A model generated the notes under the pieces. It was not told the origin of the DNA, made no database searches, and worked only from the letters and a program-made list of their open reading frames with translations. Shown here piece after piece: positions 22,754 to 23,585 of a DNA stretch of 64,000 nucleotides (positions are counted from its first letter, which is position 1; each line of letters begins with the position of its first letter). The position numbers and the translations under genes are program-made. Origin of the DNA: Escherichia phage TH09; the sequence record MT446387.1. The stretch is one strand, 5' to 3'.

Positions 22754-22826
22754 TGGGAATTAGCCAAGTTGGTAAGGCACTGGATTTTGATTCCAGGATG
22801 CAAAGGTTCGAGTCCTTTATTCCCAG
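22754..22826 (+). tRNA. tRNA-Gln (anticodon UUG), no encoded CCA
   Basis: Manual fold: acceptor tgggaat/attccca, anticodon arm ctgga-ttTTGat-tccag, T-loop ggttcgagtcc. Confidence 0.8.
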
Positions 22827-22827
22827 C

Positions 22828-22914
22828 GCGAGAATGGTCAAATTGGTAAAGGCACAGCACTTAAAATGCTGCGGAATGATTTCCTTGTGGGTTCGAGTCC
22901 CACTTCTCGCACCA
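22828..22914 (+). tRNA. tRNA-Leu (anticodon UAA), long variable arm, CCA encoded
   Basis: Acceptor gcgagaa/ttctcgc, anticodon arm cagca-ctTAAaa-tgctg, T-loop ggttcgagtcc, 3' ACCA. Confidence 0.8.
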
Positions 22915-22919
22915 AATTT

Positions 22920-22993
22920 GCGGATATCGTATAATGGTATTACCTCAGACTTCCAATCTGATGATGTGAGTTCGATTCTCATTATCCGCTCCA
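22920..22993 (+). tRNA. tRNA-Gly (anticodon UCC), CCA encoded
   Basis: Acceptor gcggata/tatccgc, anticodon arm tcaga-ctTCCaa-tctga, T-loop agttcgattct. Confidence 0.8.
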
Positions 22994-23003
22994 ATTTAAT
23001 TTA

Positions 23004-23077
23004 CTCCGTGTAGCTCAGTTTGGTAGAGCGCCTGATTTGGGATCAGGAGGTCCAAGGTTCAAATCCTTGTATGGAGA
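23004..23077 (+). tRNA. tRNA-Pro (anticodon UGG), no encoded CCA
   Basis: Acceptor ctccgtg/tatggag, anticodon arm cctga-ttTGGga-tcagg; 2 nt before tRNA-Ser (dimeric-precursor arrangement known in T4). Confidence 0.78.
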
Positions 23078-23079
23078 CT

Positions 23080-23169
23080 GGAGGCGTGGCAGAGTGGTTT
23101 AATGCACCGGTCTTGAAAACCGGCAGTCGCTCCGGCGACTCATAGGTTCAAATCCTATCGCCTCCGCCA
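23080..23169 (+). tRNA. tRNA-Ser (anticodon UGA), long variable arm, CCA encoded
   Basis: Acceptor ggaggcg/cgcctcc, anticodon arm ccggt-ctTGAaa-accgg, T-loop ggttcaaatcc. Confidence 0.8.
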
Positions 23170-23174
23170 GTTTT

Positions 23175-23250
23175 GCTGATTTAGCTCAGTAGGTAGAGCA
23201 ACTCACTTGTAATGAGAAGGTCGGCGGTTCGATTCCGTCAATCAGCACCA
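23175..23250 (+). tRNA. tRNA-Thr (anticodon UGU), CCA encoded
   Basis: Acceptor gctgatt/aatcagc, anticodon loop ctTGTaa, T-loop ggttcgattcc. Confidence 0.78.
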
Positions 23251-23251
23251 A

Positions 23252-23326
23252 GGCCCTGTAGCTGGAAGGTTCAAGCAAGCGACTCATAATCGCCAGATGG
23301 TGGTTCAATTCCACCCAGGGCCACCA
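23252..23326 (+). tRNA. tRNA with anticodon CAU (Ile2/Met-type; T4 tRNA-Ile position)
   Basis: Acceptor ggccctg/cagggcc, anticodon loop ctCATaa, T-loop ggttcaattcc, 3' ACCA. Confidence 0.75.
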
Positions 23327-23339
23327 AATTAAGAATTAA

Positions 23340-23426
23340 GGGGAGTTATCCCGTAGAGGTAGCGGTGTGGACTGTAAATCCATTGTCATTGCGACTCGGG
23401 TGGTTCGACTCCATCACTCCCCACCA
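23340..23426 (+). tRNA. tRNA-Tyr-like (anticodon GUA), long variable arm
   Basis: Acceptor ggggagt/actcccc, anticodon arm gtgga-ctGTAaa-tccat, 15-nt variable arm, T-arm ggtgg-ttcgact-ccatc, 3' ACCA; not in the canonical 8-tRNA T4 set (memory). Confidence 0.65.
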
Positions 23427-23430
23427 ATTT

Positions 23431-23505
23431 GGATGTGTAGCTCAATGGCAGAGCGATCGCCTGTTAAGCGATTGGTTATAGGTTCGAATCCTATCACGTC
23501 CGCCA
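23431..23505 (+). tRNA. tRNA-Asn-like (anticodon GUU)
   Basis: Acceptor ggatgtg/cacgtcc (one G-U), anticodon arm atcgc-ctGTTaa-gcgat, T-loop ggttcgaatcc, 3' GCCA. Confidence 0.65.
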
Positions 23506-23509
23506 AATA

Positions 23510-23585
23510 CGAGGCATAGCTCAGAAGGAAGAGCAAGGACCTTCTAAGTCCTGGGTCGTAGGTTCGATCCCTACTGCCTCGACCA
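23510..23585 (+). tRNA. tRNA-Arg (anticodon UCU)
   Basis: Acceptor cgaggca/tgcctcg, anticodon arm aggac-ctTCTaa-gtcct, T-loop ggttcgatccc, 3' ACCA. Confidence 0.78.

What the first reader, a model, noticed from the sequence alone, without database searches (positions are those of the whole stretch)
22754..23585. Ten-tRNA cluster including Tyr(GUA)- and Asn(GUU)-type tRNAs beyond the canonical T4 set
Manual folding gives ten contiguous tRNAs: Gln(UUG), Leu(UAA), Gly(UCC), Pro(UGG), Ser(UGA), Thr(UGU), a CAU-anticodon tRNA, then Tyr(GUA) with a long variable arm, Asn(GUU) and Arg(UCU). T4 is generally described with eight tRNAs and no Tyr or Asn (memory). Tyr and Asn tRNAs are both substrates of queuosine-anticodon nucleases (colicin E5 type), so the extra pair could act as replacements for tRNAs attacked by host or competitor anticodon nucleases, or simply adjust codon usage.
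Basis: partly seen in the sequence, partly recalled or inferred. Interest (0 to 1): 0.45.

Follow-up and report, generated by a model that had tools for sequence, protein, structure and literature searches.

The report
Known T2-type ten-tRNA phage cluster
The ten tRNA genes are real, but this is the ordinary, already annotated tRNA cluster of T2-like relatives of phage T4. T4 is the odd one out because a selfish endonuclease gene (segB) sits where the Tyr and Asn tRNAs are, and the Tyr tRNA of this type has already been shown to help phages escape a bacterial tRNA-cutting defence.

Summary
Observation confirmed. ARAGORN and Rfam both find ten tRNAs at 22754-23585 (+): Gln, Leu, Gly, Pro, Ser, Thr, CAU, Tyr, Asn, Arg.

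The window is a Tequatrovirus, 99.6-99.9% identical to phage JLBYU31. 433 phage records hold the Tyr-Asn pair, many with both genes annotated as tRNAs, including classical T2/T2L (Asn 100%, Tyr 98.9% identical).

T4 has eight tRNAs and carries the homing endonuclease gene segB where Tyr and Asn lie here. The CAU-Tyr-Asn-Arg block is a T2-type module; its CAU and Arg genes are only 61% and 50% identical to T4's.

Both tRNAs and this layout were described in 2008. SegB's preferred 27-bp cleavage site lies inside tRNA-Asn and is present exactly at 23481-23507.

A 2026 paper shows that T6 tRNA-Tyr (97.7% identical) counters the Septu PtuAB nuclease, which cuts the tRNA-Tyr variable loop. T4, which lacks the gene, cannot escape.

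So the "replacement tRNA" idea is right in spirit for Tyr, but not through a colicin-E5-type anticodon nuclease. The anticodon loops equal the host's, and there are no His or Asp tRNAs.

For Asn, a role against PARIS AriB is inferred only, from G39/G41 substitutions at the AriB site. High Tyr/Asn codon demand is a live alternative.

Verdict: already known, low interest.

The parts
22754..22827 (+). tRNA-Gln(UUG). The body is identical to T4 Gln, but the whole anticodon arm is swapped (CTGGA-TTTTGAT-TCCAG versus T4 TAGCA-CTTTGAC-TGCTA). No CCA is encoded.
22828..22914 (+). tRNA-Leu(UAA); the 22648-23271 segment holding it is 96% identical to T4; CCA encoded
22920..22993 (+). tRNA-Gly(UCC), T4 ortholog, CCA encoded
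23004..23078 (+). tRNA-Pro(UGG), T4 ortholog, no CCA encoded
23080..23169 (+). tRNA-Ser(UGA), T4 ortholog. It carries the secondary SegB site GGTTCAAATCCTATCGCCTCCGCCAGT at 23145-23171.
   Evidence: PMC2330249
23175..23250 (+). tRNA-Thr(UGU), 96% identical to T4 Thr. Positions 36-41 read UAAUGA versus host UAAUCA. T2 has the trna.1 ORF at this position instead.
23252..23326 (+). CAU-anticodon tRNA. It is 100% identical to the T2/T2L 'tRNA-Met', 61% to T4 tRNA-Ile and 76% to E. coli ileX, with an anticodon stem-loop identical to ileX, so it is probably an Ile2 (lysidine) type.
23340..23426 (+). tRNA-Tyr(GUA), phage type. Identity: 98.9% to T2, 97.7% to T6, 78% to T5/BF23, 60% to host tyrU. Its 15-nt variable region TGTCATTGCGACTCG is invariant across the phage families examined.
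   Evidence: PMC13096335
23431..23505 (+). tRNA-Asn(GUU), with G73 and an encoded CCA. It is 100% identical to T2/T2L and about 61% to host asnT. Positions 36-41 read UAAGCG versus host UAAUCC.
23481..23507 (+). Exact copy of the preferred 27-bp SegB recognition site (GGTTCGAATCCTATCACGTCCGCCAAA), covering the T arm and 3' end of tRNA-Asn.
   Evidence: The register is fixed by the paper's statement that the Asn site differs from the Ser site at G6, A16, G18, A26 and A27 (PMC2330249).
23510..23585 (+). tRNA-Arg(UCU), 100% identical to T2/T2L but only 50% identical to T4 tRNA-Arg
23587..23706 (+). rnaD (species 2 stable RNA) ortholog, function unknown
   Evidence: alignment with the T4 rnaD annotation; PMC3014915
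23713..23850 (+). rnaC (species 1 stable RNA) ortholog. Its tRNA-like 3' domain is miscalled 'tRNA-Lys' by ARAGORN.
23901..23929 (+). Intrinsic terminator (10-bp stem with 7 G-C pairs, then a T run) that closes the tRNA-rnaD-rnaC unit

Best explanation
This is the segB-free tRNA cluster of a T2/GiZh-like Tequatrovirus. It consists of ten tRNA genes, then the stable RNAs rnaD and rnaC, then one terminator.

The first six genes (Gln to Thr) are T4 orthologs. The last four (CAU, Tyr, Asn, Arg) form the T2-type module. In T4 that module is replaced by tRNA-Ile, segB and an unrelated tRNA-Arg(UCU) gene.

The presence or absence of Tyr and Asn among T-even phages is driven by SegB homing. SegB cuts preferentially inside the tRNA-Asn gene, and repair from a segB-carrying co-infecting genome overwrites the module.

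Function of tRNA-Tyr: it belongs to a phage-specific family shared by T-even, T5-like, rV5-like and SSU5-like elements. It supplies extra tyrosine-decoding capacity, or acts as a decoy, when PtuAB nucleases (Septu, retron-Eco7) destroy host tRNA-Tyr by cutting its variable loop.

Function of tRNA-Asn: it probably does the same kind of job. It adds Asn-decoding capacity for an Asn-rich, AT-rich proteome. It may also resist PARIS AriB or OLD-type Toprim nucleases, because it carries G39 and G41 at the AriB cleavage site.

Shown: gene identity, synteny, the SegB site, and sequence identity to the experimentally tested T6 and T2L genes. Inferred: that this phage's Tyr protects against Septu or retron-Eco7, and any anti-nuclease role for Asn.
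For: - Ten tRNAs are confirmed.
- The window is 99.9% identical to JLBYU31 over the cluster region and 99.6% over 4.3 kb, and the ten tRNAs are annotated there.
- 433 phage records hold at least 80% of the Tyr-Asn segment, against 126 holding at least 80% of segB.
- T4 has segB between Ile and Arg. T4 homology breaks at 23271 and resumes at 23540.
- CAU, Asn and Arg are 100% identical to T2L AJ880101, and Tyr has one mismatch.
- No segB homolog is found in the window.
- The exact 27-bp SegB site is at 23481-23507. PMC2330249 shows that SegB homing erases T2L Met-Tyr-Asn-Arg.
- PMC13096335: Septu EcB88 cleaves tRNA-Tyr at C48/A49. T6 tRNA-Tyr overexpression or amplification rescues infection. 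Deleting the tRNA-rich region sensitises T6. T4, which lacks tRNA-Tyr, cannot escape. T2 is resistant.
- The window Tyr is 97.7% identical to T6 Tyr, with the same C48/A49 context and a variable region identical to T5's.
- AriB cuts host tRNA-Asn at U36AAUC|C41, and substitutions at 39 and 41 in tRNA-Lys block cutting. The window Asn reads UAAGCG, and T5 Asn also has G39.
- Tyr and Asn codons make up 44.7 and 60.9 per 1000 in the window's ORFs. E. coli is about 28 and 39 per 1000 (from memory).
Against: - No experiment exists on this phage or on any T-even tRNA-Asn.
- T6 tRNA-Tyr is itself cut by Septu EcB88 at C48, so protection there depends on dose, not on resistance.
- T2's resistance to Septu was not attributed to its tRNA-Tyr by the authors.
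- In PARIS experiments T4 was rescued without any Asn tRNA, and Asn is only a secondary AriB target.
- The phage still lacks a tRNA-Lys(UUU), the primary AriB target.
- The tRNA region is non-essential for T4 and T2L in the laboratory (PMC2330249).
Confidence: 0.85

Rival explanations
1. Pure translational supply. Tyr and Asn tRNAs are kept only because the AT-rich phage proteome uses far more Tyr and Asn codons than the host tRNA pool is tuned for, with no link to defence systems.
For: Window ORFs use Tyr at 44.7 and Asn at 60.9 codons per 1000, mostly UAU and AAU. That is about 1.5 times the E. coli values (from memory). Both anticodon loops are identical to the host's, as expected for plain supplements.
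Against: The eight canonical T4 tRNAs all read A-ending codons that are rare in the host. Tyr(GUA) and Asn(GUU) instead duplicate the host's only anticodon for those amino acids, so they do not follow the same logic. The T6 homolog has a demonstrated anti-Septu effect. One invariant variable arm across unrelated phage families points to selection on more than decoding. T4 does well without either gene.
Confidence: 0.3
2. The pair replaces queuosine-family tRNAs attacked by colicin-E5-type anticodon nucleases.
For: Tyr and Asn are two of the four E5 substrates (established knowledge; not tested here).
Against: The anticodon loops are identical to host tyrU and asnT, so there is no resistance determinant at the E5 site. 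No His(GUG) or Asp(GUC) tRNA is present in the window. None of the papers read here links a T-even tRNA to colicin E5. The nucleases documented for these tRNAs cut the variable loop (PtuAB) or between positions 40 and 41 (AriB).
Confidence: 0.05
3. tRNA-Tyr is a decaying pseudogene or a false positive, given its borderline covariance score.
For: It scores 30.2 bits in Rfam against a threshold of 29, and slightly higher (34.4 bits) against the tRNA-Sec model. Some GenBank records label homologs 'tRNA-OTHER', 'Pseudo' or 'Val'. It has a non-canonical 4-nt linker.
Against: All stems are perfectly paired, with A73 and CCA. Compensatory changes occur between T-even and T5 copies (D stem C-G to U-A; anticodon stem). 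It is 94-99% conserved across T-even, rV5-like and phage-plasmid genomes. T6 and T5 homologs are expressed and active in rescue assays (PMC11555353).
Confidence: 0.03

Closest known systems
Phage T2/T2L tRNA gene cluster (AJ880101; MH751506), described in Brok-Volchanskaya et al. 2008, PMC2330249
   Same: The same CAU-Tyr-Asn-Arg module (100%, 98.9%, 100% and 100% identity). The same Leu, Gly, Pro and Ser genes. rnaD and rnaC lie downstream. There is no segB. The preferred SegB site in tRNA-Asn is identical.
   Different: The window keeps tRNA-Thr where T2 has the trna.1 ORF, giving ten tRNAs instead of nine. It lacks T2's ORF between Arg and rnaD. Its tRNA-Gln has a different anticodon arm.
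Phage T4 tRNA cluster (NC_000866: Gln, Leu, Gly, Pro, Ser, Thr, Ile, segB, Arg, rnaD, rnaC)
   Same: The first six tRNAs lie in a segment 96% identical to T4; rnaD, rnaC and the flanking trna.2/3/4 and e.x genes are also shared; the order and strand are the same.
   Different: T4 has segB in place of Tyr and Asn. T4's CAU (Ile) and Arg(UCU) tRNAs are different genes (61% and 50% identity).
Phage T6 tRNA-Tyr / SegB anti-Septu locus (Chihara et al. 2026, PMC13096335)
   Same: tRNA-Tyr is 97.7% identical, with the same variable arm and the same C48/A49 context.
   Different: T6 has segB right after Tyr and no Asn, and it escapes Septu by SegB-driven tandem amplification. The window has no segB, so that route is closed and only single-copy expression is available.
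T5 anti-defence tRNAs: tRNA-Tyr against retron-Eco7 (PMC11555353); tRNA-Lys, Thr and Asn against PARIS AriB (PMC11464382, PMC12409363)
   Same: The variable region and T arm of tRNA-Tyr are identical. tRNA-Asn shares the U39-to-G change at the AriB site.
   Different: Overall identity is only 78% (Tyr) and 60% (Asn). There is no tRNA-Lys(UUU) here. No functional test exists for the T-even Asn.

Membership tests
Canonical tRNA (Rfam RF00005 / ARAGORN) | Covariance-model score at or above the gathering threshold, and a cloverleaf found by an independent program | tested here: met
   All ten pass (30.2-74.1 bits against a threshold of 29).
Canonical tRNA (Rfam RF00005 / ARAGORN) | Standard 2-nt connector (U8, N9) between the acceptor and D stems, checked for tRNA-Tyr | tested here: not met
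   The connector is 4 nt (TATC). T2, T6 and T5/BF23 also have 4 nt, and PG7 has 5. This is a family trait, not a defect, because T5 and T6 homologs are functional (PMC11555353, PMC13096335).
Bacterial-type tRNA-Tyr and tRNA-Asn identity | Tyr: GUA anticodon, A73, long variable arm. Asn: GUU anticodon, G73. (Identity rules are from established knowledge.) | tested here: met
   Read directly from the sequence. Charging itself is not testable here.
T2-type tRNA module of T-even phages (CAU-Tyr-Asn-Arg, segB-less) | Same gene order and near-identical sequences to T2L AJ880101 | tested here: met
   0, 1, 0 and 0 mismatches in CAU, Tyr, Asn and Arg. The region is collinear by blastn.
T2-type tRNA module of T-even phages (CAU-Tyr-Asn-Arg, segB-less) | Absence of segB and presence of the preferred 27-bp SegB site in tRNA-Asn | tested here: met
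   tblastn with T4 SegB finds nothing better than E=1. The exact site is at 23481-23507.
Anti-PtuAB (Septu / retron-Eco7) phage tRNA-Tyr | Sequence membership in the tested T6/T5 tRNA-Tyr family | tested here: met
   97.7% identical to T6. The variable region and T arm are identical to T5/BF23.
Anti-PtuAB (Septu / retron-Eco7) phage tRNA-Tyr | Rescue of infection on hosts that carry the defence | not testable with these tools
   Needs plaque assays with the wild-type phage and a tRNA-Tyr deletion mutant.
AriB (PARIS)-insensitive phage tRNA-Asn | Substitutions at or around the 40|41 cleavage site (UAAU motif, position 41) | tested here: met
   UAAGCG versus host UAAUCC. T5 Asn reads UAAGUU. The determinants are taken from PMC12409363.
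AriB (PARIS)-insensitive phage tRNA-Asn | Resistance to AriB cleavage, or rescue of infection | not testable with these tools
   No published test was found for any T-even tRNA-Asn.
Counter-measure to colicin-E5-type Q-anticodon nucleases | An altered target (positions 33-36) or coverage of the substrate set Tyr, His, Asn, Asp | tested here: not met
   The loops are identical to the host's. No His or Asp tRNA is present in the window.
tRNA-Ile2 (lysidine, CAU), for the seventh tRNA | Resemblance to ileX rather than metT or the initiator; C4-G69 and C5-G68 (TilS determinants, from memory) | tested here: inconclusive
   76% identical to ileX against 58% to metT. The 4-bp stem core and 7-nt loop (GCGA-CUCAUAA-UCGC) are identical to ileX. 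C4-G69 and C5-G68 are present. However, 27-43 is A-C instead of G-U. T2 records call it Met.

The most novel reading that the evidence does not exclude
The T2-type tRNA-Asn(GUU), together with tRNA-Thr(UGU), may be a nuclease-insensitive replacement for host tRNAs cut by Toprim tRNases (PARIS AriB, P2 OLD). If so, the cluster is a multi-defence counter-measure cassette.

Its anticodon-arm polymorphisms would then record an arms race with tRNA nucleases. These are Asn G39/G41, Thr G40, and the two tRNA-Gln alleles that differ only in the anticodon arm.

SegB homing, which cuts inside tRNA-Asn, would impose a trade-off by deleting anti-defence tRNAs from the phages it invades.
Probability: 0.25. 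Interest if true: 0.45.

Novelty: already known. Interest (0 to 1): 0.12.

Why it matters
It adds little as a discovery. The genes, their layout, the reason T4 lacks them and an anti-defence role for tRNA-Tyr are all published.

It does mark this phage as a segB-less, tRNA-Tyr-positive T-even. Such a phage is predicted to plate better than T4 on Septu or retron-Eco7 hosts, and to lose its CAU-Tyr-Asn-Arg block in co-infection with T4.

The one open point is what the T-even tRNA-Asn does. The substitutions at the AriB site make that directly testable.

Tried and rejected
- The ARAGORN eleventh gene, 'tRNA-Lys(ttt)' at 23758-23851, was rejected. It is rnaC.
- Rfam at E<=1 over 23240-23960 gave no family for rnaD or rnaC. 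The only other matches were far below their gathering scores and are taken as spurious: Plastid-ycf2 on the opposite strand of tRNAs, YrlA and ST7-OT3_4.
- Flanking ORFs not found in T4 (22152-22667, 23979-24452, 24571-25134, 26094-26624) were scanned against Pfam and PHROGs. They hit only unknown-function phage families, and none is a homing endonuclease.
- tblastn for SegB in the window found nothing.
- The promoter scan around the cluster was no better than shuffled sequence, so no promoter is assigned.
- The PARIS Nature paper and the DARNA preprint were searched for Asn and held nothing.
- The pseudogene reading of Tyr and the colicin E5 reading were both considered and rejected (see the rival explanations).
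- Formal pair counting on the 7-sequence Tyr alignment was not pursued, because MAFFT mis-registered the 5' ends. A manual parse was used instead.
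Full report
**1. Is it there?**

Yes. ARAGORN finds ten tRNA genes head to tail on the + strand at 22754-23585.

Rfam's tRNA model independently passes its gathering score for all ten. Asn is the strongest at 74.1 bits. Tyr is the weakest at 30.2 bits against a threshold of 29.

A manual parse explains the weak Tyr score. It is a class-II tRNA with a 15-nt variable region, and it has four nucleotides (TATC) rather than two between the acceptor and D stems. Otherwise every stem is fully paired, the discriminator is A73 and CCA is encoded.

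The same architecture is found in T2, T6, T5/BF23, an rV5-like phage, an SSU5-like phage-plasmid and a Karamvirus. There are compensatory changes in the D stem (C-G to U-A) and in the anticodon stem. It is therefore a conserved family trait, not decay.

Eight of the ten genes encode CCA. Gln and Pro do not.

**2. What is the window?**

The region 22700-23960 is 99.9% identical to Escherichia phage JLBYU31, species Tequatrovirus gizh, and 457 phage records cover at least 80% of it. JLBYU31 already annotates the same ten tRNAs.

The Tyr-Asn segment alone is held at 80% coverage or more by 433 phage records. Many of them label the genes tRNA-Tyr and tRNA-Asn, including classical phage T2.

**3. 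Comparison with T4, T2 and T6**

| Phage | tRNA cluster | Source |
|---|---|---|
| T4 | Gln, Leu, Gly, Pro, Ser, Thr, Ile, segB, Arg, rnaD, rnaC (eight tRNAs, no Tyr or Asn) | |
| T2 and T2L | Gln, Leu, Gly, Pro, Ser, [trna.1 ORF], Met(CAU), Tyr, Asn, Arg | |
| T6 | Gln, Leu, Gly, Thr, Met(CAU), Tyr, then segB | |
| Window | All ten, uninterrupted, with no segB homolog | |

- T4 homology to the window runs to 23271 and resumes at 23540.
- The window's CAU, Asn and Arg genes are 100% identical to T2L, and Tyr has one mismatch.
- The window's CAU and Arg are only 61% and 50% identical to T4's tRNA-Ile and tRNA-Arg.

So the correct description is not 'T4 set plus two'. It is 'six T4-type genes followed by the T2-type four-gene module'. 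The window holds the fullest form of the cluster among the four phages compared.

Full-length segB occurs in 126 records, against 433 with Tyr-Asn. T4 is therefore the less common state.

**4. Why T4 lacks them**

Brok-Volchanskaya et al. 2008 (PMC2330249) sequenced the T2L, RB1 and RB3 clusters and named tRNA-Met, Tyr, Asn and Arg.

- In T4 x T2L co-infections, segB is inherited at nearly 100%.
- This comes with loss of about 1250 bp of T2L that encodes Met, Tyr, Asn and Arg.

Using the paper's statement that the Asn site differs from the Ser site at G6, A16, G18, A26 and A27, the site register is unambiguous. The sequence GGTTCGAATCCTATCACGTCCGCCAAA is present exactly at window 23481-23507. 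The window is therefore a ready SegB recipient allele.

**5. What the extra tRNAs do**

*tRNA-Tyr.* Experimental evidence exists on near-identical genes. Chihara et al. 2026 (PMC13096335) report the following:

- Septu EcB88 (PtuAB) cleaves E. coli tRNA-Tyr in the variable arm at C48/A49.
- T6 tRNA-Tyr overexpression rescues infection.
- Deleting the tRNA-rich region sensitises T6.
- Escape mutants amplify a tRNA-Tyr-segB unit.
- T4, which has no tRNA-Tyr, cannot escape.
- T2 is resistant, although the authors do not attribute this to its tRNA-Tyr.
- The phage tRNA is also cut at C48, so the effect depends on dose.

Azam et al. 2024 (PMC11555353) showed that T5 tRNA-Tyr neutralises retron-Eco7 PtuAB.

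The window Tyr is 97.7% identical to T6's, with the same C48/A49 context. Its variable region and T arm are identical to T5's but differ from the host's. It is only 60% identical to host tyrU. It is 94-95% identical to copies in unrelated rV5-like phages and SSU5-like phage-plasmids, which points to horizontal spread of one favoured variant.

*tRNA-Asn.* I found no experiment on a T-even copy. PARIS AriB cleaves host tRNA-Lys(UUU), Thr(UGU) and, secondarily, Asn(GUU) between positions 40 and 41, within U36AAUC|N41. In tRNA-Lys, substitutions at positions 39 and 41 block cutting. T5 Lys, Thr and Asn together neutralise PARIS (PMC12409363). P2 OLD was also assayed on host tRNA-Asn in vitro, in a kinetics comparison where tRNA-ThrU was cut fastest.

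| tRNA-Asn copy | Positions 36-41 |
|---|---|
| Window | UAAGCG |
| Host asnT | UAAUCC |
| T5/BF23 | UAAGUU (also G39) |

The window and T4 Thr read UAAUGA against host UAAUCA. This fits a nuclease-insensitive copy, but it is inference only. T4 was rescued from PARIS without any Asn tRNA.

*The supply alternative.* Window ORFs use Tyr at 44.7 and Asn at 60.9 codons per 1000. That is about 1.5 times the E. coli values as I recall them. Unlike the eight canonical T4 tRNAs, which all read A-ending codons rare in the host, Tyr(GUA) and Asn(GUU) duplicate the host's only anticodon for those amino acids. They can add capacity but cannot shift codon preference.

**6.

It is not supported.

- The anticodon loops CUGUAAA and CUGUUAA equal those of host tyrU and asnT, so nothing would make the phage copies resistant at the E5 site.
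- His and Asp tRNAs, the other two E5 substrates, are absent from the window.
- The documented nucleases act elsewhere on the tRNA.

**7. Surroundings**

- Downstream of Arg lie orthologs of T4 rnaD (23587-23706) and rnaC (23713-23850), then a strong intrinsic terminator at 23901-23924. The roles of the two small RNAs are still unknown (PMC3014915).
- No promoter stood out.
- ORFs absent from T4 flank the unit and belong to unknown-function phage families.

**8. Verdict**

Everything substantive is already published or annotated, so this is already known and of low interest.

The only untested element is the function of the T-even tRNA-Asn, for which the G39/G41 substitutions give a concrete experiment.

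Noticed in passing
window 22754-22826: The tRNA-Gln(UUG) body is 100% identical to the T4/T2/T6 gene, but the entire anticodon arm is swapped with compensatory changes (CTGGA-TTTTGAT-TCCAG versus TAGCA-CTTTGAC-TGCTA). The loop becomes identical to E. coli glnU. Both alleles are common in the phage collection: 290 records are at least 99% identical to the window allele, while T4 and T2 are 89% and fall in the 80-90% band (236 records). The cause is unknown. It may reflect selection by an anticodon-arm nuclease or by a modification enzyme.
   Followed up: partly
window 23758-23851 (within rnaC, 23713-23850): ARAGORN calls a 94-nt 'tRNA-Lys(ttt)' here. It is the tRNA-like 3' domain of the stable RNA rnaC: an acceptor-like stem ACGGAAC/GTTTCGT, a perfect T arm CCGGG-TTCGAAT-CCCGG and a CUUUUAA heptamer equal to the tRNA-Lys anticodon loop. 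It is not called in T4, which differs by a 1-nt indel, and it gets no Rfam tRNA hit. The function of rnaC is still unknown.
   Followed up: partly
window 23252-23326: The CAU tRNA is labelled Met in T2 records and by ARAGORN. It is 76% identical to E. coli ileX, with an identical anticodon stem-loop and C4-G69/C5-G68, and only 58% identical to metT. It is probably a lysidine-type tRNA-Ile2 that reads AUA. It is a different gene from T4's tRNA-Ile (61% identity).
   Followed up: partly
window 23510-23585: tRNA-Arg(UCU) is 100% identical to T2's but only 50% identical to T4's tRNA-Arg(UCU). These are two unrelated genes with the same anticodon at the same locus.
   Followed up: yes
window 23340-23426; L007, L008, L009, L010: The phage-type tRNA-Tyr has a non-canonical 4-5-nt linker between the acceptor and D stems. 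Its variable region plus T arm is invariant across Tequatrovirus, Tequintavirus (T5/BF23), Vequintavirus, Karamvirus and about 110-kb E. coli phage-plasmids. Several GenBank records mislabel it as tRNA-OTHER, Pseudo or Val.
   Followed up: partly
window 23979-24452 and 24571-25134; 24488-25158 and 25930-26619: Two ORFs of the same unknown-function family (phrog_2280) lie in tandem downstream of rnaC. They share almost no pairwise similarity. The second ORF, and a further block holding ORF 26094-26624 (phrog_6869), lie in stretches with no match to the otherwise 99.6%-identical phage JLBYU31. Neither stretch has a match in the T4 region either, so this is local mosaicism.
   Followed up: partly
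window 22152-22667: A 171-aa ORF (phrog_2290, unknown function, called 'RB32ORF134c' in T2) lies between trna.2 and tRNA-Gln. T4 has only a short spacer there.
   Followed up: partly
L009 (E. coli plasmid pEC881_2, NZ_CP019027.1) 1427-1673: About 110-kb E. coli plasmids, which I take to be SSU5-like phage-plasmids, carry Asn-Tyr-Thr tRNAs. The Tyr is 94% identical to the T-even gene, while the flanking tRNAs are unrelated (67-69%). 219 of the 5426 E. coli genomes searched hold such a copy.
   Followed up: no
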